This document shows, one piece after another, positions 2,910 to 61,143 of a stretch of DNA of 64,000 bases (position 1 is the first letter of the stretch; each line of letters begins with the position of its first letter). The translations under genes were made by a program, and so were the position numbers. The stretch covers positions 64,564 through 128,563 of the forward strand of contig DEIN01000008.1 of assembly GCA_002352465.1 (NCBI GenBank). Reading direction: 5' to 3'. The notes under the pieces were generated by a model that was not told the DNA's origin, did not search any database, and was given only the letters and a program-made list of their open reading frames with translations. The stretch comes from Patescibacteria group bacterium UBA2773. Lineage in GTDB: Bacteria; Patescibacteriota; Minisyncoccia; Moranbacterales; DUUL01.

Positions 2910-3863
2910 CTATGAAATTAATTTATTAAATAAATTACCAAACTCTTCTTCTGAATAATAATTTAAAATAAATTTTCCACCTTTCTGCCCTTTTTTTATG
3001 CTGACTTTTGTCCCAAGTGCTTGACTGATTTTATCTTCAAATTCCAATATTTCCGGAGTTTGATTTAAACTATTTTTTTCAACTGAATTTGGATTATTAA
3101 TTTTCTTTACTCTTTTTTCTGTTTCTCGAACGCTAAGTTTGGAATTAATAATCTGATTAACCATCGTTTCCCTTTGATTTCGGTCTTCAAGGCTCAACAA
3201 AACTCGTCCGTGACCTTCACTAATTTCACCCGTTCTGATTTTTCGTTTTATATTAGAAGATAAATCCAAAAGTCTTAAAGTGTTAGCGATGGTTGATCTG
3301 TTTTTCCCTACTTGTTGAGCAATTTCTACTTGAGTATAATTAAAATTATCAGCCAATCTTTGGTAAGCTTTGGCTTCTTCAATAGCATTTAAATCATGTC
3401 TTTGGATATTTTCAATCAAAGCCCATTCTAATTTTTCTTTGTCACTGATTTTTTTAACGATTGCTGGAACTGTGCTCAAACCATTTTTTTGAGAAGCTTT
3501 GAAGCGTCTTTCTCCTGCCACTAAATCAAAACCACCAACAGAATTTTTTGTCACCACTAATGGTTGAATAATTCCATGTTTACGAATAGAAGTAGCTAAT
3601 TCTTCTAATTTATTTTCATCAAAATATTGTCGAGGTTGGAAAGGATTGGCTTTTATTTGACCAACTTCAATTTCTAAAATTGAATTTTTCGAAGATTCAT
3701 CTTTTCCATCTCTAATTAAATCTTTGCTTACTATTTCACTGTCCAAATCGCTAGATGCAAAGTTGGTTTTTTTGGTTTTTTTATTAAGAGCTGGATTATT
3801 ATTTGATTTTCTTTGAGGAATTAATGAAGATAGCCCTTTCCCCAAACCTCCTTCTCTAGACAT
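2910..3863 (-). CDS. parB: chromosome partitioning protein ParB/Spo0J
   Basis: N-terminal GLGKGLSSLIP, ParB box QPRQYFDENKLEELATSIRKHGIIQPLVV, HTH region. Confidence 0.9.
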   Translation of the reverse strand: MSREGGLGKGLSSLIPQRKSNNNPALNKKTKKTNFASSDLDSEIVSKDLIRDGKDESSKNSILEIEVGQIKANPFQPRQYFDENKLEELATSIRKHGIIQPLVVTKNSVGGFDLVAGERRFKASQKNGLSTVPAIVKKISDKEKLEWALIENIQRHDLNAIEEAKAYQRLADNFNYTQVEIAQQVGKNRSTIANTLRLLDLSSNIKRKIRTGEISEGHGRVLLSLEDRNQRETMVNQIINSKLSVRETEKRVKKINNPNSVEKNSLNQTPEILEFEDKISQALGTKVSIKKGQKGGKFILNYYSEEEFGNLFNKLIS

Positions 3864-3961
3864 TTTTATTTTTATTACTTATTACGGAACCGTTTTTATA
3901 AGTTTTTCCGCCATAGGCGGGTTCGCCTATGGCGAAAATTTTATAAACTTTGAAAATGAAT

Positions 3962-4720
3962 TTATCTAGCGATGACTTCATCAGCCAATTGACGATAAGC
4001 CTGAGCACCTTTATTAAATCGGTCAAAATGCAAAATCGACTTTCCAAAGCTTGGGGCCTCTGCCAATCGAACTGTTCGAGGAATTACTGAATCAAAAACA
4101 TTTTCTGGAAAATACTTTTTAACTTCCTTGACGACTTGTCGGGCTAGCCGGTTTCTTTTGTCATACATAGTCAAAACTATCCCAGTGATGACTAATTCGG
4201 GCTTTAGATTTTCTCGGACTAAATCAATGGTGTTGAGTAATTGCCCTAGTCCCTCCAATGCAAAATATTCAGTTTGGACCGGAATTATTACCTCATTAGA
4301 AGCAACCAGTCCATTGATTGTCAAAAGACCCAAACTTGGTGGTGAATCGATGATTATAAAATCATAATCTTTCTCGACTTGTTTTAAAACTTGTTTTAAT
4401 TGGAATTCTCGTTTTTCCACGCCCACTAATTCGACGGCTGCTCCGGAAAGTTCTTGGTTGGAAGGAAGTAAAGCTAATCCCTTAGAATCGACTGTTAAAA
4501 TAATTTCTTTAGGATGGATCTTCGAAACAAGACTGTCATAAAGACTTTTTTTAAGATTTTGAGTATCAGTTCCTAATCCGCTGGAAGCATTACCTTGTGG
4601 ATCCAAGTCAACTAATAATACACTTTTTCCTGCTGAAACCAGATAGGTCGCTAAATTTACAGCAGTAGTAGTTTTACCAACACCACCTTTTTGATTGACC
4701 AATGATATTATTCTTGCCAT
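3962..4720 (-). CDS. parA: chromosome partitioning ATPase ParA/Soj (start adjusted to MARIISL)
   Basis: Deviant Walker A NQKGGVGKTTTAVNLA; ParA family length. Confidence 0.9.
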   Translation of the reverse strand: MARIISLVNQKGGVGKTTTAVNLATYLVSAGKSVLLVDLDPQGNASSGLGTDTQNLKKSLYDSLVSKIHPKEIILTVDSKGLALLPSNQELSGAAVELVGVEKREFQLKQVLKQVEKDYDFIIIDSPPSLGLLTINGLVASNEVIIPVQTEYFALEGLGQLLNTIDLVRENLKPELVITGIVLTMYDKRNRLARQVVKEVKKYFPENVFDSVIPRTVRLAEAPSFGKSILHFDRFNKGAQAYRQLADEVIAR

Positions 4721-4968
4721 AAAAAAATAGTTAGAAATAGTTCTAAAGAGACTGTTTACAGTCATAATTTTGCCTACCTCGTCAAAGCTTTAGTATCGGC
4801 GGGTTGCGAAATTTGTTAATTTTGAGGTAAATTATTTTAAAATTTTTGAGGCATTAGCCGAAGCTAAGTTGAAAGAATTTTTAAAGAATTTAACCAAAAT
4901 TGGAAAATTGCAATAAAAAGAATGATTGAAAATAATTCTTTACTTTAGTATATCAGAATTTTGATTTA

Positions 4969-8858
<3,890 letters not shown>

Positions 8859-49109: not shown

Positions 49110-50078
49110 TTATTTCATTAAAGCTTTTATTATAAGTTCGGTAGCTTGGTTTTCATTTAAACCACGGGTCATTAGGGTTTCTAGTTCTTTTTGGTTGATT
49201 TTTCCCACTGAAGCCTCGTGGGTGACGCGAGCTTGATCATTGGTCACCTCAACGATTGGAACGGCTTTAGCAACTGAATTTTTGCCGATTACAATCTCTT
49301 GGCAATCGATATGACCGAAAGCACCAGGAGCTTTGGCAAAAGTTTCTCCTTGCATCCAAACTTGTCCACCATTTTTGGCAGCCGCTCTCATCGTCACGAG
49401 ACTTTTGCTATTTTCTCCTTCCAAATGAATGATGTCGGTTATTCTGACTTCATCTTTTTTGTTAGTTCCAAAAACTTTGGTTCTAATTTCCGCTCTGGCA
49501 TTTTTCTTCAAAAAAGCTTCTAGGACGATTTCGACTTTTCCAACGGTCCCTTTAGTTAAATTAAAATCACTTTCAAATTGCCCGTCTTCGTCAATTTCAA
49601 TTTTCAATTTCGGTGTCACAGTTGCTCCAGATTTTTCACCGTGATAGTGTTGCTCAATATAAGAAAATTTAGCATTTTTTCCAATCTTAAAAACACCTTC
49701 CATATTGTGATGATTGTCTTTGGAATTAGGAAAAGTGCAATGCGAATGAATAACGACTTCAGAATTTTCTTCTAAAATAATTTCTGGATAAATTGCCTGG
49801 GTTTCTTTTCCTCCTTTTAACCCAAAACAAAAAAACAATGGCTCTTTGATTTTTTGATTTTTTTGAACAATAATTTTGGCTTTTACTCCACTCTCAAGTT
49901 CTTCATAAATAGCTTTAATTCCTTTCGAAAATGTTTGAATTAAAACTTCATTTCCTTCTACGAAAAATTTGTTCTTACTTTTTAGAAGCTCTCTCATTCC
50001 GCACATTTTAGCAGTTTTGATGAAAGCTTCTGGCAATTTTTTATTATTCTTTATTTGAGGTTTTTTATTAAAAAACAT
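49110..50078 (-). CDS. SufB/SufD-family Fe-S assembly protein (short, stand-alone)
   Basis: C-terminal beta-helix and THEASVGKINQKELETLMTRGLNENQATELIIKAL SufBD signature; no sufC/sufS nearby. Confidence 0.55.
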   Translation of the reverse strand: MFFNKKPQIKNNKKLPEAFIKTAKMCGMRELLKSKNKFFVEGNEVLIQTFSKGIKAIYEELESGVKAKIIVQKNQKIKEPLFFCFGLKGGKETQAIYPEIILEENSEVVIHSHCTFPNSKDNHHNMEGVFKIGKNAKFSYIEQHYHGEKSGATVTPKLKIEIDEDGQFESDFNLTKGTVGKVEIVLEAFLKKNARAEIRTKVFGTNKKDEVRITDIIHLEGENSKSLVTMRAAAKNGGQVWMQGETFAKAPGAFGHIDCQEIVIGKNSVAKAVPIVEVTNDQARVTHEASVGKINQKELETLMTRGLNENQATELIIKALMK

Positions 50079-53000
50079 TAAATTACAATATTTATTAATT
50101 TTCCTTTAATATAAATCATTTTTTTAATAGTTTGCCCTTTAAGATGTTTTTTAATTTTTTCAGATTCTTGAGCAATTTTTTTGATTTCATCTTCTTCGAC
50201 TCCGATTGAAACTGTTATTTTATTTCGAACTTTTCCATTGATTTGAATCACTAGTTCAAATTGGTCATCTTCCAAATTTTCCTCATTATAAGCTGGCCAT
50301 TTTTCAAGAAAAATTGATTTATCGTTCTTTAATTTGGTCCAAAATTCTTCAGCAATGTGAGGTGCCATTGGAGCTAAAACTAACGCCATTGTTCTTTTGA
50401 TTTTTTGAGTTTGTCCTAAATTAAAGTTCGCAGAATTTTCTCGAATCCAATTAATAAATTCCATATATCGAGCAATGGCCGTGTTGAAAGAAAGTTTTTC
50501 CAAATCCTCTCCAATCGCCTTGATAGTTTTATCAATCATCTGAGTTTTTTCTACGCCTTCTCCTGCCCCCTCTAAATCAAAAAAAGTTTGCCAAAGTTTT
50601 TTCATGAATCTCGCCATTCCGGCTGCTCCATCATCTCGCCAATCGCCACCTTGAGAAAAATCTCCCAAAAATCTGAGATAAAGCCGAACTGCATCCACTC
50701 CATATTTTTCGATCATCTCATCAGGATTAATGACATTACCTTTAGATTTGCTCATCTTGGCACCATCTTTGGTAATCAAACCGTGACCAAAAAATTTCTT
50801 GTAAGGTTCTTCAAAATCGATAAAGCCCAAGTCGTTCAAAACCATTGTGATAAACCGAGAATACAACAGATGTAAAACGGTATGTTCTTTTCCGCCAATA
50901 TAGCTGTCAACCGGCAACCATTTTTTGGCTCGGTCTTTATTGATAGCCTCGTTATCAAACTCGGTTGAAGAATATCTCAAGAAATACCAAGAAGAATCTA
51001 CAAATGGATCAGAAACGTCCGTTTCTCTTTTAGCTGGTTTACCGCAAACAGGACAAACGGTATTCACAAATTCTACGTTTTTAGCCAACGGCCCTTTGCC
51101 TTTTCCTTCTGGCAAAAAATCAATCATATCTGGCAATTCTACTGGCAAATCTTTTTCTGGCACTGGCACCGCTCCACATTTTTCGCAGTGAATGATTGGA
51201 ATTGGAGGTCCCCAATAACGTTGTCTTGAAACACACCAATCCCTGAGTTTATAGTCGATTGATTTTTCGCCTAGTTTTTTCTCTTCCAGCCATTTGATCA
51301 TTTTTTGCTTGGCTTTTTCCGTTTTTAAACCATCTAAAAATTCAGAGTTGATAGATTTTCCAATCATAGAAGAACAAATTTTTCCTTCTTTTAAGTCTTT
51401 TATAAATTCATCATACGCAATACCACTATTTTGACCTTCAAAAATAATTGGTCCACCTATGGGCTCAACAACGCATTTAATTTCAATCCCAAACTTTTTG
51501 GCGAATTCAAAATCGCGTTCGTCGTGGGCGGGAACGGCCATAATGGCGCCAGTTCCGTAGCCAGACAAAACATAGTCAGCTACCCAAATTGGGATTTCCG
51601 CTTGGTTGACTGGGTTAATAGCTTTGATTCCTTTTATTTCAACGCCAGTTTTTTCTTTTTCTTCTTCTTTCCGTTCTTGTTCAGATTTTCCTTTAGCCGT
51701 ATCAATATATTTCTGCACTTCTTCCCAATTTTTTATTTCATCTTTCATTTTTTCAATCAATTTGTGCTCTGGTGCCAAAACCATATAAGTTGCACCAAAA
51801 AGCGTATCCGGCCTGGTCGTAAAAACTTCAATTTGATTTTCTTTTTTCTCTTCCAATATCTCACTAAGAAGCTCCGGAAATTCCTCTGTTTTCATATCTT
51901 GAATAGTAAAATGTCCATGATTTTTTAAATTAATAACCTTAGCAGGAAGCTCTTTTTTGTATTCTTCTGCTCCTTGAATATGCTTTGGTATATCATCATT
52001 GGAAGTAAAAATAACGATTTTATTTTTCACATATAAATCAATATTTTTAATGATTTTACCTCCATAAAAACTAGATAAAACTTCTCTGCTTTGTTTTCCA
52101 GATTTTCCTGGAGAAACTAAAATTAATTTTTTAATTTTAGTTTTTGTTTCATTTAACCAACGAACCAAGAAAGCTCCGCCAGCAGAATGTCCAATTAAAA
52201 TAGAGTCTTCATTGATATCAATTTTGTCAAAAATCTTTTTCCAATCTGAATATTTTGGTGCCCAATCTTTAGGATATATTTCATTAGAAACTTTTATTCC
52301 TTTTTCTTTTAATTTATTATTTAGCCACAATTTCCAATGTCTTAAATTTTCTGGACCGCTCTCCTTATTCTCTGAGCCTTCTTTAGTAGAATTACTTCCA
52401 TGAACAATCACCACATTTGATATTTGATATTTTGAATTTGTTTGTTTCTTGTTTCTTGTTTCTTGTTTCTTGATTGAAATTTCAAATTTCACCCTTGCAC
52501 CTTCAGATTTTCCAATCCAGTTGCGTTGATTGATTTTGACATCTTCTGACCAGTCAATCCACTCAAGGTTTTTTAAAAGTTTTTCAGCGTAGTCAGTGAT
52601 TTTAAAAAACCATTGCTTAAGTTCTTTTTTCTCAACTTGTGACTCACAACGCTCACACTTCCCTTGAATAACTTGTTCATCAGACAAAACTGTTTTACAC
52701 CACGGACACCAATTGACCTTGGCTTTTTTTTGGTAGGCTAGACCCCTTTTAAAAAGTTGCAAAAATAGCCACTGGGTCCATTTGTAGTATTCTGGTTTAT
52801 AAGTCTCCACAGTTCTGGACCAGTCATACATATTTCCAATAGAAGACAATTGTCTATAAAAATTTTTCTCAGTTCGTTCAGAAACTGTTTTGATGTGCTC
52901 TCCGATTTTCATCGCATAATTTTCGCTATGAATTCCAAAACCGTCCAAGCCAATTGGTTCAAAAATATCAAAGCCTTGCATTTTTTTGTATCGGCCATAG

Positions 53001-53197
53001 GTGTCCACTCCAGTGAAAGTGTAAACTCCGCCGATGTGCAATCCTTCGGCGCTAGGATAAGGAAACATCATTAAATTATGAAATGGTTTTTCAGCTTTAT
53101 CTAAATCGGGTTGATAAAGTTTATCCGTTTCCCATTTATCCTTCCATTTTTTTTCGATTTTTTTGAAATTATATTCTGGAATTTTTTGCTCTGGCAT
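50078..53197 (-). CDS. leuS: leucyl-tRNA synthetase with inserted RBBP9/YdeN-type alpha/beta serine hydrolase domain and shortened CP1 editing domain
   Basis: LeuS N-terminus MFPYPSAEGLHIGG (HIGH variant), WIGKSEGARVKFE, TTRPDTLFGATY, GTGAIMAVPAHDERDF, AKMSKSKGN; insertion VVIVHGSNS...HW / IGHSAGG / TSNDDIP / NHGHF between WIGKSEG and TTRPDT. Confidence 0.9.
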   Translation of the reverse strand: MPEQKIPEYNFKKIEKKWKDKWETDKLYQPDLDKAEKPFHNLMMFPYPSAEGLHIGGVYTFTGVDTYGRYKKMQGFDIFEPIGLDGFGIHSENYAMKIGEHIKTVSERTEKNFYRQLSSIGNMYDWSRTVETYKPEYYKWTQWLFLQLFKRGLAYQKKAKVNWCPWCKTVLSDEQVIQGKCERCESQVEKKELKQWFFKITDYAEKLLKNLEWIDWSEDVKINQRNWIGKSEGARVKFEISIKKQETRNKKQTNSKYQISNVVIVHGSNSTKEGSENKESGPENLRHWKLWLNNKLKEKGIKVSNEIYPKDWAPKYSDWKKIFDKIDINEDSILIGHSAGGAFLVRWLNETKTKIKKLILVSPGKSGKQSREVLSSFYGGKIIKNIDLYVKNKIVIFTSNDDIPKHIQGAEEYKKELPAKVINLKNHGHFTIQDMKTEEFPELLSEILEEKKENQIEVFTTRPDTLFGATYMVLAPEHKLIEKMKDEIKNWEEVQKYIDTAKGKSEQERKEEEKEKTGVEIKGIKAINPVNQAEIPIWVADYVLSGYGTGAIMAVPAHDERDFEFAKKFGIEIKCVVEPIGGPIIFEGQNSGIAYDEFIKDLKEGKICSSMIGKSINSEFLDGLKTEKAKQKMIKWLEEKKLGEKSIDYKLRDWCVSRQRYWGPPIPIIHCEKCGAVPVPEKDLPVELPDMIDFLPEGKGKGPLAKNVEFVNTVCPVCGKPAKRETDVSDPFVDSSWYFLRYSSTEFDNEAINKDRAKKWLPVDSYIGGKEHTVLHLLYSRFITMVLNDLGFIDFEEPYKKFFGHGLITKDGAKMSKSKGNVINPDEMIEKYGVDAVRLYLRFLGDFSQGGDWRDDGAAGMARFMKKLWQTFFDLEGAGEGVEKTQMIDKTIKAIGEDLEKLSFNTAIARYMEFINWIRENSANFNLGQTQKIKRTMALVLAPMAPHIAEEFWTKLKNDKSIFLEKWPAYNEENLEDDQFELVIQINGKVRNKITVSIGVEEDEIKKIAQESEKIKKHLKGQTIKKMIYIKGKLINIVI

Positions 53198-53801: not shown

Positions 53802-54368
53802 TTACGACAAACAATCAAGATCTTTAGCATAGCTAGTAGCATAATCAAATTCCCTCCCTCTGTTTTCGGTTGGAAGATATGGACTTAATTCTTTTAAAGC
53901 TTCTTTCGCTAATTTTATCATACTACTATCATCTTCCTTTTCTTTTTTGATAACGTTAATCACAATTGTCATTATGTCTTTTGCATAACTACCCGCATAA
54001 TCAAATGATCTTTCACCTCGACTTTCTGGAAAATATTCACGAAGAGAAAGAAATATTTCTATCATAGACTTAATTTTGTTGAAATCCGCTGAATCTGTCT
54101 TTGCAGTATTAATAGAAAGATCCATAATTTCTTTTGCATAACTACCCGCATAATCAAATGATTCTTCGCCTCTATTTTTTGGTAATTTTTCATTTAGTTG
54201 CAAGAACGCTCCTAATGCCAAATCTACATCCCCTGTCTTAATGGCATTTTCCATTTCTTCTTTTAATAACCCATTTTCTTTTTCGTTTGGAATTTTTTCA
54301 ACCTTATTTTCATTCCTTTCTGAAAGCGAATCATTAGAACCTGATTTTTTAAATTCTTCAAATGACAT
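53802..54368 (-). CDS. hypothetical protein with three ~45-aa tandem repeats (RGE.SFDYAGSYAK.IM)
   Basis: Internal repeats LPKNRGEESFDYAGSYAKEIM / FPESRGERSFDYAGSYAKDIM / LPTENRGREFDYATSYAKDL. Confidence 0.45.
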   Translation of the reverse strand: MSFEEFKKSGSNDSLSERNENKVEKIPNEKENGLLKEEMENAIKTGDVDLALGAFLQLNEKLPKNRGEESFDYAGSYAKEIMDLSINTAKTDSADFNKIKSMIEIFLSLREYFPESRGERSFDYAGSYAKDIMTIVINVIKKEKEDDSSMIKLAKEALKELSPYLPTENRGREFDYATSYAKDLDCLS

Positions 54369-54748: not shown

Positions 54749-54751
54749 TTG

Positions 54752-54824
54752 TGGACCAGACAGGACTTGAACCCGCTACCTCCTCAGTGCAAATGAGGTG
54801 CTCTACCAGGTGAGCTACTGGCCC
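54752..54824 (-). tRNA. tRNA-Ala (anticodon UGC)
   Basis: Hand-folded cloverleaf: acceptor GGGCCAG with G3:U70 wobble, D-arm GCTC/GAGC, anticodon loop TTTGCAC; no encoded CCA. Confidence 0.8.
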
Positions 54825-55019
54825 ATCACAAATTACTGTTAAACTATAAATTTAAGCAATCTTAAACAAGTAAAATTTCTTTACGAAAATTAAAATTTTT
54901 AAGTTAAATTATTTGAAATATTTCCGATACCTATATTCATAGGTTGAGAAAATTTTCAGATAATTTAACTAAAAATTTGAATTTGCAGTAGAAAAAGTGC
55001 TCGACAATAATTCCTCCTG

Positions 55020-55093
55020 TGGGCATATCAAGATTCGAACTTGAGACCTCAACATTATCAGTGTTGCGCTCTAACCAACTGAGCTATATGCCC
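55020..55093 (-). tRNA. tRNA-Ile (anticodon GAU)
   Basis: GGGCATATAGCTCAGTTGGTTAGAGCGCAACACTGATAATGTTGAGGTCTCAAGTTCGAATCTTGATATGCCCA folds as cloverleaf; loop CTGATAA. Confidence 0.85.
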
Positions 55094-59568: not shown

Positions 59569-61143
59569 TTATTCGATTGCCTTTATCATTTTTTTAGCCA
59601 CAGCTTCCAAAACAGTTACTGTCACGGAATTTCCAGCTTGTTTATATAAAGCAGAATCAGAAAGATCTTTCGGCAAGATGAAGCTTTTAGGAAAACCTTG
59701 TATTCTAAAACATTCCAAAGGGGTTAATTTCCTGATGCCTTTGTTGTCTTTTATAATTGGTACATTATGTCCACCCATTCCCATATTAGCCGTTAAGGTT
59801 GGACAAACACATTTTTTATTTTCTCTAACATATTTTCGTCTCCATTGATAAACAGTGTTTTTATCAACAACAAAATCTTTTATTTTTTCATACAAAGGTT
59901 TACCTTCATAATAATATTTTTTATCAATATTCTTTTCTAATAAATCTTGCACGCTTACATTTAGTTTTACTGGATCAGGAAACTCAAAATTTTCTAAATG
60001 TTTTTTGTCTTTGAATCCAACAATGTAAATTCTTTCTCTATTTTGAGGAACATTTCCAAATTCCATACTATTTAAAACTTTGGCATCTGTGTGATAACCA
60101 AGATCTTTAAGTTTTTTCATTATTATTTTAAATGTTTTTCCTCCATCATGACCTTTCAAATTTTTTACATTTTCTAGTAAAAATCCTTTCGGCTCTCTGG
60201 ATTCGATAATTCTAGCAACATCAAAAAACAAATTCCCTCTTCCTTTTTCGTCTTTGAATCCATGTCTGTGACCAGCGATTGAAAATGCTTGACAAGGAAA
60301 TCCGCCCAAAAGAAAATCAAATTCTGGCAAATCATCAATTCCAATTTCTCTTATATCTTCAACGATTAATTTGGATCTTTTAAAATTTAAATCATAAGTT
60401 TTTTTACAATGTTCATCAAAATCATTAGCAAAAACAGTTTTGAATCCAGTTTTTTCAAATCCTAATCTTATTCCGCCCACTCCAGCAAATAAATCAATAG
60501 TTCTTAGTTTTTTTTGATTGGTGGGTTTAATGTCATTTTTAAAGCTTCTAACAATTTTAACTACAACGCCTCTGATTTCAACTTCTTCTCTGTAAAAGGG
60601 CAACATTGTTTGATTGGCTGGTTGTAATCTAAAGCAATTTTTCTCTCGGTAGATTTTTTTTAAAGTTGTTTCATTATCATCTATTATTGCAACAACAGTT
60701 TGACCATTTTCGGCAGATGATTGTTTTTTTATTACCACAATATCACCATCGAATATTCCTTCCTCAATCATACTTTCTCCTTTTACCTGTAAAGCATAAT
60801 ATTCTTGATTTTTTTGAATTTCTTTTTGCAAAATAGGAATTGTTCCTCTTTCAACTTCAATCGCTTCGATTGGTTTTCCGGCCGTAATAATACCAACAAT
60901 AGGAATATTGATTATTTTTTTTATTTTATTTTTTATTACCGGAACAATGCCTCTAGCAGAACTCCCTTCTTTATTTAGAAAACCTTTTTCTGATAAAGTT
61001 TGAATATGCTGATGCACTGTAGAAATAGCAGAAAGTTTAAAATGTTTTTTTATTTCTTCAAAAGTAGGAGATATTTTATTCTTTTTTATGTAACTTTTAA
61101 TGTAGTCCAAAATTTGTTTTTGTCTTTTTGTCAGAGTTGGCAT
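59569..61143 (-). CDS. LexA (wHTH + S24 autopeptidase) fused in-frame to DNA (cytosine-5)-methyltransferase
   Basis: Residues 1-200 align with LexA along its length (LTKRQKQILDYI...SARGI; cleavage-site AG in VGIITAGKP; Ser in KGESM; Lys in TTLKKIYR); residues ~205-524 carry C5-MTase motifs I FAGVGG, IV GFPCQAFS, VI ENV, VIII QNRERIYIVG, X QAGNSV. Confidence 0.85.
   Translation of the reverse strand: MPTLTKRQKQILDYIKSYIKKNKISPTFEEIKKHFKLSAISTVHQHIQTLSEKGFLNKEGSSARGIVPVIKNKIKKIINIPIVGIITAGKPIEAIEVERGTIPILQKEIQKNQEYYALQVKGESMIEEGIFDGDIVVIKKQSSAENGQTVVAIIDDNETTLKKIYREKNCFRLQPANQTMLPFYREEVEIRGVVVKIVRSFKNDIKPTNQKKLRTIDLFAGVGGIRLGFEKTGFKTVFANDFDEHCKKTYDLNFKRSKLIVEDIREIGIDDLPEFDFLLGGFPCQAFSIAGHRHGFKDEKGRGNLFFDVARIIESREPKGFLLENVKNLKGHDGGKTFKIIMKKLKDLGYHTDAKVLNSMEFGNVPQNRERIYIVGFKDKKHLENFEFPDPVKLNVSVQDLLEKNIDKKYYYEGKPLYEKIKDFVVDKNTVYQWRRKYVRENKKCVCPTLTANMGMGGHNVPIIKDNKGIRKLTPLECFRIQGFPKSFILPKDLSDSALYKQAGNSVTVTVLEAVAKKMIKAIE

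What the first reader, a model, noticed from the sequence alone, without database searches (positions are those of the whole stretch)
50078..53197. Leucyl-tRNA synthetase with an inserted RBBP9/YdeN-type serine hydrolase domain in place of part of the editing domain
The LeuS ORF is 1039 aa, against a typical ~800-860 aa. An ~190-aa insert sits between the catalytic-core motif WIGKSEGARVKFE and the CP1 entry motif TTRPDTLFGATY. The insert has the hallmarks of the RBBP9/YdeN alpha/beta hydrolase family: VVIVHGSNS...HW, nucleophile elbow IGHSAGG, Asp in TSNDDIP, His in NHGHF. The catalytic triad is therefore intact. The canonical CP1 editing domain is shortened (~100 aa between TTRPDT and GTGAIMAVPAHDERDF, versus ~180 in E. 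coli), so its hydrolytic core may be partly deleted. An ester-hydrolysing serine hydrolase grafted exactly at the editing-domain insertion point suggests a replacement or auxiliary deacylase for mischarged tRNA-Leu, or another tRNA-linked hydrolytic activity. This is inference. The HIGH motif also reads HIGG (LHIGGVYTF), with the second His replaced by Gly, while KMSKS is intact.
Basis: partly seen in the sequence, partly recalled or inferred. Interest (0 to 1): 0.8.

Follow-up and report, generated by a model that had tools for sequence, protein, structure and literature searches.

The report
Serine hydrolase nested inside leucyl-tRNA synthetase
A leucyl-tRNA synthetase gene of a small-genome (CPR-type) bacterium carries a complete, apparently active small serine hydrolase inserted into a surface hairpin of its intact proofreading domain; this is one case of a widespread LeuRS-hydrolase association in CPR bacteria and DPANN archaea for which I found no published description and whose function is unknown.

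Summary
ORF 50078-53197(-) encodes a 1039-aa bacterial-type LeuRS. It carries a ~206-aa insert (aa 244-449), which is a complete RBBP9/YdeN-family alpha/beta hydrolase with Ser338/Asp402/His429 intact.

The CP1 editing domain is neither shortened nor replaced. The hydrolase sits at the tip of the first beta-hairpin of a full-length CP1 whose editing motifs are intact. HIGG is a trait of the whole clade and is unrelated to the insert.

Wider context:
- The same hydrolase family is nested in LeuRS at five or more different loops.
- It occurs in CPR bacteria and in many DPANN-labelled archaea.
- It also occurs as a free ~190-aa gene directly next to leuS.
- Near-identical LeuRS genes differ in whether they carry the module.
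- The window's module is closer to DPANN copies (63-70% identity) than the host LeuRS cores are to each other (41-50%), so the module moved laterally.
- The hydrolase is also nested, rarely, in UvrB, Der, ValRS and a glycosyltransferase.
- LeuRS relatives carry other nested domains too: NUDIX, GIY-YIG, ASCH and a nucleotidyltransferase.

Best reading: an add-on enzyme tethered to a normal LeuRS, not an editing replacement. The substrate is unknown. An extra deacylase role is possible but untested. I found no published description.

The parts
50078..53197 (-). leuS ORF, 1039 aa (stop codon 50078-50080); bacterial-type leucyl-tRNA synthetase with a nested hydrolase
   Evidence: ORF. (TIGR00396, 920 bits). 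(T. thermophilus and E. coli LeuRS structures, E 1e-173 to 6e-210).
52469..53197 (-). LeuRS N-terminal part, aa 1-243: Rossmann-fold first half, Zn-binding CxxC...CxxC insertion, and the first strand of the CP1 hairpin (GARVKFEI)
   Evidence: aligned to Tth residues 3-239. PF09334 and PF00133.
53027..53038 (-). HIGH-motif variant HIGG (aa 54-57)
   Evidence: This is a clade-wide variant (HxGN or HxGG in about 110 of the 120 closest LeuRS).
52418..52480 (-). N-terminal linker ISIKKQETRNKKQTNSKYQIS (aa 240-260). It is Lys-rich and ends in the 'ISN' junction shared by nested copies.
   Evidence: pLDDT is below 60 in both models.
51851..52417 (-). Nested RBBP9/YdeN-family alpha/beta serine hydrolase domain (aa 261-449). 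It corresponds to an entire free-standing ~190-aa protein.
   Evidence: PF06821, 47 bits. (aligns end to end with free proteins, 45-69% identity). (pLDDT 89; RBBP9 and YdeN are the best folds)..
52184..52186 (-). Codon of the nucleophile Ser338 (GHSAGG)
   Evidence: Invariant in 113 of 113 free and 39 of 39 LeuRS-embedded copies. Aligns to RBBP9 Ser75.
51992..51994 (-). Codon of Asp402 (TSNDD), the triad acid
   Evidence: D or E in nearly all copies. It aligns to the second Asp of RBBP9's 'STDD'. The number Asp138 is from my memory of the human sequence.
51911..51913 (-). Codon of His429 (NHGHF), the triad His
   Evidence: invariant in free copies.
51833..51850 (-). C-terminal linker EKKENQ (aa 450-455)
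51278..51832 (-). Remainder of the CP1 editing domain (aa 456 to about 640). It includes the T-rich motif TTRPDT (aa 460-465, nt 51803-51820) and GTGAIMAVPAHDERDF (aa 548-563, nt 51509-51556).
   Evidence: PF13603, profile positions 18-185 of 185.. (motifs conserved across relatives).
51389..51457 (-). Small lineage-specific loop, aa 581-603 (GGPIIFEGQNSGIAYDEFIKDLK), at 'site B'. This is the position where relatives carry a NUDIX or hydrolase domain.
   Evidence: Low pLDDT at 585-590.
50081..51277 (-). LeuRS C-terminal half, aa 641-1039: second half of the catalytic core with KMSKS (aa 814-818, nt 50744-50758), anticodon-binding domain and C-terminal domain. There is no leucine-specific domain.
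   Evidence: (Tth residues 578-636 have no counterpart)..

Best explanation
This is a complete, presumably functional bacterial-type LeuRS. The synthetic site has KMSKS and a clade-typical HIGG, and the CP1 editing domain is full length.

Inserted at the turn of the first beta-hairpin of CP1 is a self-contained RBBP9/YdeN-family Ser-Asp-His hydrolase. The turn corresponds to T. thermophilus residues 237-240, about 7 residues before the T-rich editing peptide. The hydrolase is joined through a ~21-aa Lys-rich linker and a 6-aa linker.

The hydrolase is an addition to the editing domain, not a substitute for it.

The module is a portable unit. It exists as a free ~190-aa gene, often directly next to leuS. 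It has been nested into LeuRS repeatedly at five or more surface loops in DPANN archaea and CPR bacteria. The copy in this window's lineage came laterally from the DPANN-type pool.

Shown: the anatomy, the intact catalytic residues, the recurrence, and the lateral origin.

Inferred: the domain folds independently on the LeuRS surface and works as an autonomous esterase or amidase made 1:1 with LeuRS. Its strong preference for LeuRS as host or neighbour reflects a substrate or task connected with LeuRS, namely an acyl or aminoacyl ester or amide. The precise substrate is not known.
For: ANATOMY
-.
- The insert equals a whole free protein from residue 2-3 to its C-terminus.
- Fold: pLDDT 89, with RBBP9 and YdeN as the top matches.

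CATALYTIC RESIDUES
- Ser is kept in 39 of 39 LeuRS-embedded and 113 of 113 free copies. The acid and His are kept wherever they can be aligned.

CP1 INTACT
-.

RECURRENCE
- 70 inserts longer than 50 aa were found in the 120 closest LeuRS, clustering at sites A, B and C.
- In species representatives, 31 of the 80 best hydrolase loci are nested in leuS_bact-type LeuRS: 28 at site A and 3 at site B. Of these, 29 carry DPANN or unclassified 'archaeon' labels, including the complete Pacearchaeota chromosome CP061211.1.
- Further sites lie at core-HMM positions ~205 and ~646.

ADJACENCY
- 7 more of those 80 loci have the free gene immediately up- or downstream of leuS on the same strand. So do P0009 and P0002.

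LATERAL ORIGIN
- Insert identity is 80% to P0122 and 63-70% to DPANN copies, whose LeuRS cores are only 41-50% identical to this one.
- LeuRS cores 78-92% identical to this one lack the insert or carry a different subtype (38% identity).
- Nested site-A copies share an 'ISN' junction.
- Insert GC3 is 0.18, against 0.30-0.35 for the host core.
- Nested and free copies are interspersed in a distance tree.
Against: - No activity data of any kind.
- The full-length AF2 model is unreliable in the hydrolase region (pLDDT 34-58 for residues 365-450). The position of Ser338 relative to the editing and synthetic sites is therefore unknown.
- The same hydrolase is also nested in UvrB, Der/EngA, a GT2 glycosyltransferase and ValRS, and is fused to NUDIX or YdjC.
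- LeuRS relatives also host unrelated domains: NUDIX, GIY-YIG, ASCH and a nucleotidyltransferase.
- Both facts fit a model in which LeuRS loops are simply permissive and the link to LeuRS function is weak or absent.
- The RBBP9 residues that hold the substrate alpha-amine (Ser76, Tyr99, Glu108) align to Ala, Gly and a variable position. RBBP9's substrate class therefore cannot be transferred.
Confidence: 0.7

Rival explanations
1. Auxiliary deacylase. The nested hydrolase hydrolyses mischarged aminoacyl-tRNA-Leu, or non-cognate aminoacyl-adenylate, as an extra proofreading site acting in cis. The free homologues next to leuS would act in trans, like AlaX, YbaK or DTD.
For: - Strong, recurrent LeuRS association, with most nested copies in or beside CP1.
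- Intact triad.
- Family precedent for aminoacyl substrates. Human RBBP9 forms acyl-enzymes with single amino acids including Leu/Ile and Met, and needs a free alpha-amine (PMC8866121). It is also reported to activate valacyclovir, according to the title of Shenoy et al. 2020 as listed in PMC7730578. That valacyclovir is a valyl ester of a nucleoside analogue is my own knowledge.
- The insertion point is only ~7 residues from the T-rich editing peptide.
Against: - CP1 is complete with its motifs conserved, so no gap needs filling.
- Attachment sites are scattered, including the anticodon-binding domain and the core after CP1. This argues against a precise geometry.
- The module is also nested in UvrB, Der and GT2.
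- The alpha-amine ligands of RBBP9 are not conserved.
- No usable inter-domain model.
Confidence: 0.15
2. Passenger domain with no LeuRS-specific role. The hydrolase, like the NUDIX, GIY-YIG, ASCH and nucleotidyltransferase inserts, is an independent accessory enzyme or semi-selfish module. It is tolerated in permissive loops of large housekeeping proteins in CPR and DPANN genomes, and LeuRS merely tolerates it best.
For: - Multiple unrelated hosts.
- Many kinds of inserted domains in LeuRS.
- Patchy presence among LeuRS that are 77-92% identical.
- Lateral movement independent of the host.
- Frequent switches between free and nested states.
- The insert has the lowest GC3 in the window.
Against: - LeuRS accounts for 31 of 33 long-ORF hosts in an unbiased scan of species representatives.
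- Free genes sit directly beside leuS in at least 9 independent loci. A tolerance model does not predict that.
- The paralogous IleRS was not seen as host, and ValRS only once.
- At least three divergent subtypes of the same Pfam family were each recruited to LeuRS.
Confidence: 0.3
3. Leucine supply. The domain is an aminopeptidase or amino-acid esterase that releases Leu or other hydrophobic residues from scavenged peptides or esters right next to LeuRS. This would be useful to auxotrophic CPR and DPANN cells.
For: - RBBP9 is an N-terminal aminopeptidase for hydrophobic and aromatic residues.
- The association is specifically with LeuRS.
- CPR and DPANN organisms are generally amino-acid auxotrophs (my own knowledge).
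Against: - The RBBP9 specificity residues are not conserved.
- No channelling geometry is known.
- The non-LeuRS hosts raise the same problem as for the deacylase idea.
Confidence: 0.12
4. Assembly or gene-calling artefact: a chimeric join or a mis-assembled insertion.
For: The composition drops inside the gene: GC 0.28 against 0.36.
Against: - The reading frame is open through both junctions.
- The identical protein is held by three repositories on 2 contigs.
- The same architecture occurs in dozens of independent MAGs and in a complete chromosome.
Confidence: 0.01

Closest known systems
Bacterial-type LeuRS (T. thermophilus 1H3N/2BYT, E. coli 4AQ7/3ZGZ)
   Same: Same overall architecture: Rossmann core, Zn module, CP1 editing domain with T-rich and GTG..HDxRD motifs, KMSKS, anticodon-binding domain and C-terminal domain. 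E-values are 6e-210 and 4e-173.
   Different: - A 206-aa hydrolase is nested in the first CP1 hairpin.
- There is no leucine-specific domain.
- HIGH reads HIGG.
- There is a small extra loop at aa 581-603.
Human RBBP9 (2QS9, 7OEX) and B. subtilis YdeN (1UXO); Pfam PF06821 Ser_hydrolase
   Same: - Same minimal ~190-aa alpha/beta-hydrolase fold.
- Same Ser (GHSxG), Asp and His positions.
   Different: - Only about 20-23% identical.
- RBBP9's alpha-amine-binding Ser76, Tyr99 and Glu108 are not conserved.
- The domain here is nested inside another enzyme.
- This CPR/DPANN subfamily has its own invariant residues: HW, W..P.Y..W, RWL.E and EFPELL.
Bacterial-type LeuRS of archaea with archaeal C-terminal domain (Fang et al. 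2014, cited in PMC9437257)
   Same: The DPANN-labelled hosts of the same nested hydrolase are leuS_bact-type. The C-terminus of one of them, L001, matches the archaeal/eukaryote-type model to its end.
   Different: - The nested hydrolase is not described in the texts I could read.
- The window's own LeuRS belongs to a Patescibacteria clade with HxGN or HxGG, not to that archaeal group.
IleRS with an N-acetyltransferase domain (NCBIfam NF040702 'ileS_w_GNAT')
   Same: Another class Ia synthetase that carries an unrelated small enzyme domain. It is seen here only as a model name.
   Different: The extra domain is a GNAT rather than a hydrolase. I did not examine its position or distribution.
Free-standing and cis-acting aminoacyl-tRNA deacylases (CP1, AlaX, YbaK/ProX, DTD)
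   Same: Possible functional analogy. These hydrolyse an aminoacyl ester and occur both as separate genes and fused to synthetases (established knowledge).
   Different: - No sequence or fold relationship. This domain is an alpha/beta hydrolase with a Ser-Asp-His triad.
- Deacylase activity was not tested.
Inteins and other in-frame insertions in housekeeping genes
   Same: In-frame, patchily distributed, laterally moving insertions in conserved essential proteins such as LeuRS, ValRS, UvrB and Der.
   Different: - No Hint or intein domain was detected.
- The junction residues are Ile-Ser...Gln/Ile, with no Cys/Ser/Thr + Asn splice-site pattern.
- The insert is a metabolic-type enzyme and is expected to stay in the mature protein.

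Membership tests
Bacterial-type leucyl-tRNA synthetase (TIGR00396 leuS_bact) | Whole-protein score above the curated cutoff | tested here: met
   919.9 bits against a cutoff of 548.4.
Bacterial-type leucyl-tRNA synthetase (TIGR00396 leuS_bact) | Class I signature motifs HIGH and KMSKS | tested here: inconclusive
   KMSKS is present (aa 814-818). HIGH reads HIGG. The fourth-position His is replaced by N or G in all motif-bearing members of the 120 closest LeuRS. The change is therefore clade-typical and presumably compatible with activity, but it departs from the canonical motif.
Bacterial-type leucyl-tRNA synthetase (TIGR00396 leuS_bact) | Complete CP1 editing domain with T-rich peptide and conserved Asp (GTG..HDxRD) | tested here: met
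   PF13603 at 193.8 bits, with profile positions 18-185 of 185 after the insert and the start before it. TTRPDT is at 460-465 and GTGAIMAVPAHDERDF at 548-563. The spacing equals that in T. thermophilus.
Bacterial-type leucyl-tRNA synthetase (TIGR00396 leuS_bact) | Leucylation of tRNA-Leu and hydrolytic editing | not testable with these tools
   Needs biochemistry.
RBBP9/YdeN serine hydrolases (Pfam PF06821) | Profile match above the gathering score | tested here: met
   47.0 bits against a cutoff of 22. The family profile matches YdeN at E 3e-17 and RBBP9 at E 2e-15.
RBBP9/YdeN serine hydrolases (Pfam PF06821) | Minimal alpha/beta-hydrolase fold of about 190 aa | tested here: met
   The model has pLDDT 89.1. 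The best PDB matches are 2QS9, 7OEX and 1UXO, with TM 0.79-0.84 normalised to the target.
RBBP9/YdeN serine hydrolases (Pfam PF06821) | Ser-Asp-His catalytic triad at the family positions | tested here: met
   Ser338, Asp402 and His429 are present. Ser and His are invariant, and the acid is D or E, across 113 free and 39 embedded copies where alignable.
RBBP9/YdeN serine hydrolases (Pfam PF06821) | RBBP9-type aminopeptidase pocket (alpha-amine ligands Ser76, Tyr99, Glu108) | tested here: not met
   These positions align to Ala, Gly and a variable position in the family profile. RBBP9's substrate specificity cannot be assumed.
RBBP9/YdeN serine hydrolases (Pfam PF06821) | Hydrolase activity | not testable with these tools
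   Needs probe labelling and substrate assays.
Aminoacyl-tRNA editing/deacylase domains (CP1, AlaX, YbaK, DTD) | Homology of the insert to a known editing fold | tested here: not met
   Pfam, NCBIfam and PDB searches with the insert return only alpha/beta hydrolases.
Inteins | Hint domain and splice-junction residues | tested here: not met
   No intein or Hint family appears in the Pfam scan. The junctions read ...FEISIKK... and ...KKENQ|IEVF.

The most novel reading that the evidence does not exclude
The small RBBP9/YdeN-type hydrolase of CPR bacteria and DPANN archaea is a dedicated partner of LeuRS. On this reading it is a previously unrecognised accessory activity of the translation apparatus, for example a third hydrolytic checkpoint acting on aminoacyl-tRNA-Leu or aminoacyl-adenylates, or an enzyme that destroys LeuRS-directed aminoacyl-nucleotide inhibitors. 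Evolution would have wired it to LeuRS again and again: as an operon neighbour, and as a domain nested at five or more different loops. The module would be exchanged between archaea and bacteria as a cassette. The co-occurring NUDIX insert would be a second member of the same accessory system.
Probability: 0.25. Interest if true: 0.85.

Novelty: new variant of a known kind. Interest (0 to 1): 0.65.

Why it matters
Aminoacyl-tRNA synthetases are among the best-studied enzymes. Extra catalytic domains on them (editing domains, GNAT and others) have repeatedly pointed to new biology in translational quality control, antibiotic resistance or signalling.

Here a second, unrelated hydrolytic enzyme sits inside the editing domain of LeuRS. 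A recent survey of domain insertions reported that the LeuRS editing domain family never acts as a host, with 0 host events against 213 insertion events (PMC13114784).

The pattern found here has four parts:
- nesting at many sites;
- gene adjacency to leuS;
- several hydrolase subtypes recruited to LeuRS;
- presence in both DPANN archaea and CPR bacteria, with lateral exchange of the module alone.

This is a classic 'Rosetta-stone' signal of functional linkage, and it gives a concrete handle on a hydrolase family with no known prokaryotic function.

If the link is real, it reveals a new accessory activity of translation in the two big radiations of ultra-small organisms. If it is not, it documents an unusually active process of in-frame domain nesting in essential genes of these lineages. 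That process would matter for annotation (NCBI names several of these proteins only 'class I tRNA ligase family protein') and for understanding protein evolution in reduced genomes.

Tried and rejected
1. Insert-only word-index search. It listed only free ~190-aa proteins, with neither the query's own protein nor any LeuRS fusion. This was a search quirk and not evidence that fusions are absent. The whole-protein search and the genome scan found them.
2. Mixed alignment A1 of LeuRS plus free hydrolases. The short sequences were scattered along LeuRS, so I discarded it.
3. Full-length AF2 model.
4. The look-up of encoding contigs for the window protein returned 'not on record'. The source sample and organism name were not recovered. 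I infer the organism to be Patescibacteria/CPR from two things: the LeuRS relatives named Moranbacteria or Patescibacteria, and the bacterial neighbours MurJ, LepA, LexA and F-type ATPase subunits.
5. Mobile-element signatures. There are no meaningful direct or inverted repeats flanking the insert, no intein or Hint domain, and no phage or defence-system family for the hydrolase.
6. 'HIGG signals an inactive or special synthetic site linked to the insert' is rejected. It is a clade-wide variant.
7. 'CP1 hydrolytic core partly deleted' is rejected.
8. Transferring RBBP9's aminopeptidase specificity is rejected, because the ligand residues are not conserved.
9. Literature. Nine full-text searches found no description of a LeuRS-hydrolase or LeuRS-NUDIX architecture. 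The 'YdeN' search was swamped by the surname Ydenberg.

Full report
WHAT IS IN THE WINDOW

ORF 50078..53197 on the minus strand is uninterrupted and encodes 1039 aa. It is a bacterial-type leucyl-tRNA synthetase: TIGR00396 at 920 bits against a cutoff of 548, and E 6e-210 to T. thermophilus LeuRS 1H3N.

The alignment to 1H3N breaks cleanly. Query residues 8-243 match Tth 3-239, and query 450-809 match Tth 237-578. About 206 residues (aa 244-449) are therefore extra. They sit at the E-G-K-E turn of the hairpin 'AEILFPV-EGKE-VRIPVFTTRPDT', about 7 residues before the T-rich editing peptide.

Pfam places PF06821 Ser_hydrolase in the extra segment (aa 286-433, 47 bits, cutoff 22). It finds the LeuRS editing-domain model PF13603 in two stretches, the better one covering profile positions 18-185 of 185. 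So the hydrolase lies inside a complete CP1 domain, nested two levels deep: hydrolase within CP1 within the Rossmann fold.

Compared with T. thermophilus, the protein lacks the leucine-specific domain (Tth 578-636).

- VVIVHGSNS at 262-270
- GHSAGG at 336-341
- TSNDDIP at 398-404
- NHGHF at 426-430
- HIGG at 54-57
- KMSKS at 814-818

The claim that CP1 is shortened is wrong. TTRPDT to GTGAIM spans 88 residues here and 86 in the T. thermophilus alignment.

The HIGG variant is real but unrelated to the insert. Among the 120 closest LeuRS, with and without inserts, none has HxGH: HVGN 63, HIGG 21, HIGN 16, HVGG 9. The editing motifs are conserved almost everywhere.

THE INSERT IS A WHOLE ENZYME

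Aligned with 64 free-standing homologues of about 190 aa, the insert corresponds to the entire free protein. It runs from residue 2-3 ('MN-VIIVHG') to the C-terminal 'EFPELLxEIL', at 45-69% identity. It is flanked by a 21-aa Lys-rich linker and a 6-aa linker.

An AF2 model of the insert alone has pLDDT 89. Its best structural matches are human RBBP9 (2QS9, and 7OEX with bound Phe) and B. subtilis YdeN (1UXO), with TM 0.79-0.84. The family profile hits YdeN at E 3e-17 and RBBP9 at E 2e-15, with Ser338 aligned to RBBP9 Ser75 and Asp402 to the second Asp of its 'STDD'.

The nucleophile Ser is kept in 113 of 113 free and 39 of 39 LeuRS-embedded copies. The acid (D or E) and the His are kept wherever the alignment reaches them. 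The domain is evidently maintained as an active hydrolase.

NOT AN ARTEFACT

The identical protein (P0121) is recorded by NCBI, JGI and ENA on two contigs, the longest 132 kb. A relative from other samples, P0122, carries the same module at the same junction, with the insert 80% identical.

THE BROADER PATTERN

The close relatives of this LeuRS carry names such as Moranbacteria, Moraniibacteriota and Patescibacteria. They have many inserted domains. Mapping the 120 best hits onto a core LeuRS profile gave 70 inserts longer than 50 aa, clustered at three main positions:
- Site A: the hairpin used here.
- Site B: window aa 580-604, at the end of CP1.
- Site C: window aa 676-700, in the catalytic core after CP1.

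A further small insertion lies near window aa 515. Later searches added sites near aa 210 and aa 881.

The inserted domains are of several kinds:
- Three divergent subtypes of PF06821 hydrolase. Type 1 is GHSAGG or GHSCG, as here. A 'GHSLGSK' type occurs at site C. A 'GHSMGG...FGEKD' type occurs at site A.
- NUDIX, mostly at site B.
- GIY-YIG.
- ASCH.
- A nucleotidyltransferase.
- A weak Ham1-like segment.

Among LeuRS whose cores are 77-92% identical to this one, every state occurs:
- No insert: P0128, P0130, P0131.
- Type-1 hydrolase at site A: the window.
- NUDIX at site B: P0123, P0129, P0133.
- Both: P0122.
- A different hydrolase subtype at site A: P0127, 38% identical to the window's insert.

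ARCHAEA TOO

I scanned one genome per GTDB species with the type-1 profile. This found 399 relatives. Of the best 80:
- 31 are nested in LeuRS: 28 at site A and 3 at site B. Of these, 29 are labelled Woesearchaeota, Pacearchaeota, Nanoarchaeota/Nanoarchaeia or simply 'archaeon', including the complete chromosome CP061211.1.
- 7 more are free genes lying immediately upstream or downstream of leuS on the same strand.

The same synteny appears for the free proteins P0009 and P0002. Both sit in clearly archaeal neighbourhoods, with tRNA-intron endonuclease in both and ribosomal protein S17e beside P0002. P0011, by contrast, is not near leuS.

These archaeal hosts are bacterial-type LeuRS by NCBIfam (862-918 bits to leuS_bact). 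They have canonical HMGH or HVGH.

THE MODULE MOVES ON ITS OWN

The window's insert is 63-70% identical to DPANN copies, both nested (L001) and free (P0001). The corresponding LeuRS cores are only 41-50% identical to the window's. LeuRS flanks right up to the junction are typical of the window's own clade.

Nested site-A copies from both domains of life share the junction 'xISNV(V/I)I(V/I)HG'.

In a distance analysis of 267 type-1 domains, nested copies are interspersed with free ones. A rough parsimony count gives at least 46 state changes.

The insert has GC3 0.18. The LeuRS core has 0.30-0.35, and the long ORFs of the window average 0.25±0.04.

No flanking repeats, intein features, or phage or defence affiliations were found.

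Exchange of synthetase genes and domain swapping between CPR and DPANN has precedent for TyrRS and TrpRS (PMC5370408).

NOT EXCLUSIVE TO LeuRS

In an exhaustive search of 1.84 billion cluster representatives, there were 2962 hits at E≤1e-3 and 307 at E≤1e-10. About 30 of the best 150 are LeuRS-nested. That ranking is biased in their favour, because the query carried short LeuRS flanks.

The same hydrolase also occurs in other contexts:
- nested in UvrB (P0249);
- nested in the Der/EngA GTPase (P0275);
- nested in a GT2 glycosyltransferase (P0252);
- nested in a ValRS fragment (P0291);
- fused to YdjC (P0353);
- fused to NUDIX (P0276, P0280).

In the unbiased GTDB scan, LeuRS still accounts for 31 of 33 long-ORF hosts.

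HOW IT MOST LIKELY WORKS

Shown:
- A complete LeuRS with all synthetic and editing motifs.
- An added, complete hydrolase with an intact triad at a hairpin tip.
- Recurrent, laterally spreading association of this hydrolase family with LeuRS.

Inferred:
- The domain folds independently on flexible linkers and acts as an autonomous Ser-Asp-His esterase or amidase made in a 1:1 ratio with LeuRS.
- The strong host and neighbour preference for LeuRS reflects a task connected to LeuRS.

The only biochemistry known for the family concerns amino-acid substrates:
- Human RBBP9 removes single hydrophobic or aromatic N-terminal residues. It forms acyl-enzymes with Leu/Ile, Met, Phe, Tyr and Trp, and it requires a free alpha-amine (PMC8866121).
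- RBBP9 is also reported to activate valacyclovir (reference title seen).

This keeps an aminoacyl-ester or aminoacyl-amide substrate plausible. However, the RBBP9 residues that bind the alpha-amine are not conserved here, so the analogy is weak.

I rate the readings as follows:
- The architecture and add-on reading is well supported (0.7 for the whole statement).
- Extra tRNA or adenylate deacylase: about 0.15.
- Leucine supply: about 0.12.
- Passenger with no LeuRS-specific role: about 0.3.

The full-length model is unreliable in the hydrolase region (pLDDT 34-58 for residues 365-450).

NOVELTY

Extra domains on synthetases are a known kind of thing. A serine hydrolase nested in the CP1 hairpin, and the whole LeuRS-hydrolase (and LeuRS-NUDIX) pattern in CPR and DPANN, did not turn up in nine full-text searches. 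A 2026 survey of domain insertions reports the LeuRS editing-domain family as never hosting another domain.

I therefore class it as a new variant of a known kind. Interest is moderate to high, limited by the unknown function and by the evidence that LeuRS loops accept many kinds of domains.

Noticed in passing
window 53027-53038 (aa 54-57 of LeuRS): The HIGH motif lacks its second His (HIGG). In the 120 closest LeuRS the motif is HVGN (63), HIGG (21), HIGN (16) or HVGG (9), and never HxGH. The DPANN-labelled LeuRS hosts keep HMGH or HVGH. This is a clade-wide change of a class I signature motif in a Patescibacteria LeuRS lineage.
   Followed up: partly
window 59569-61143 (-): A 524-aa ORF combines a LexA DNA-binding domain (aa 1-65), the LexA-type S24 autopeptidase domain (81-195) and a complete C-5 cytosine DNA methyltransferase (214-521). 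This is an unusual LexA-Dcm fusion.
   Followed up: no
LeuRS relatives P0122-P0240, mapped to window aa ~515, 580-604 and 676-700: LeuRS of this clade also hosts NUDIX (site B), GIY-YIG (near aa 515), ASCH (site C), an aminoglycoside-2''-adenylyltransferase-like nucleotidyltransferase (site B) and a weak Ham1-like segment. Some proteins carry two or three inserts and reach 1442 aa.
   Followed up: partly
proteins P0249, P0275, P0252, P0291, P0353, P0276, P0280: The same type-1 hydrolase is nested in UvrB, in the Der/EngA GTPase (between its two G domains), in a GT2 glycosyltransferase and in a ValRS fragment. It is also fused to YdjC and to NUDIX. The hydrolase-NUDIX pairing recurs both as stand-alone fusions and as two separate inserts in one LeuRS.
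   Followed up: partly
loci L034 (aa 259-623 of its LeuRS), L015, and protein P0305: Some LeuRS carry two hydrolase domains in tandem at site A.
   Followed up: no
window 50076-50080: The leuS stop codon and the start codon of the downstream SufBD-family gene (49110-50078) overlap by one base (TAATG). This suggests translational coupling.
   Followed up: yes
window 53802-54368 (-): A 188-aa ORF with no Pfam match contains three copies of a ~50-aa repeat ending in 'RGE(E/R)SFDYAGSYAK(E/D)IM'.
   Followed up: no
window 54751-55093 (-): tRNA-Ala(TGC) and tRNA-Ile(GAT) lie side by side, the pair usually found in a bacterial rRNA operon spacer. However, Rfam finds no rRNA anywhere in the 64-kb window.
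   Followed up: no
window 51389-51457 (aa 581-603 of LeuRS): The window's LeuRS has its own 23-aa low-confidence loop exactly at site B, where relatives carry NUDIX or hydrolase domains. It may be a remnant or a landing pad.
   Followed up: no
locus L001 (LeuRS ORF 3266-6892): The Woesearchaeota-labelled LeuRS host is bacterial-type over the core. Its C-terminal ~350 residues match the archaeal/eukaryote-type LeuRS model to its very end. This is consistent with the known 'bacterial LeuRS with archaeal tRNA-binding domain' type.
   Followed up: no
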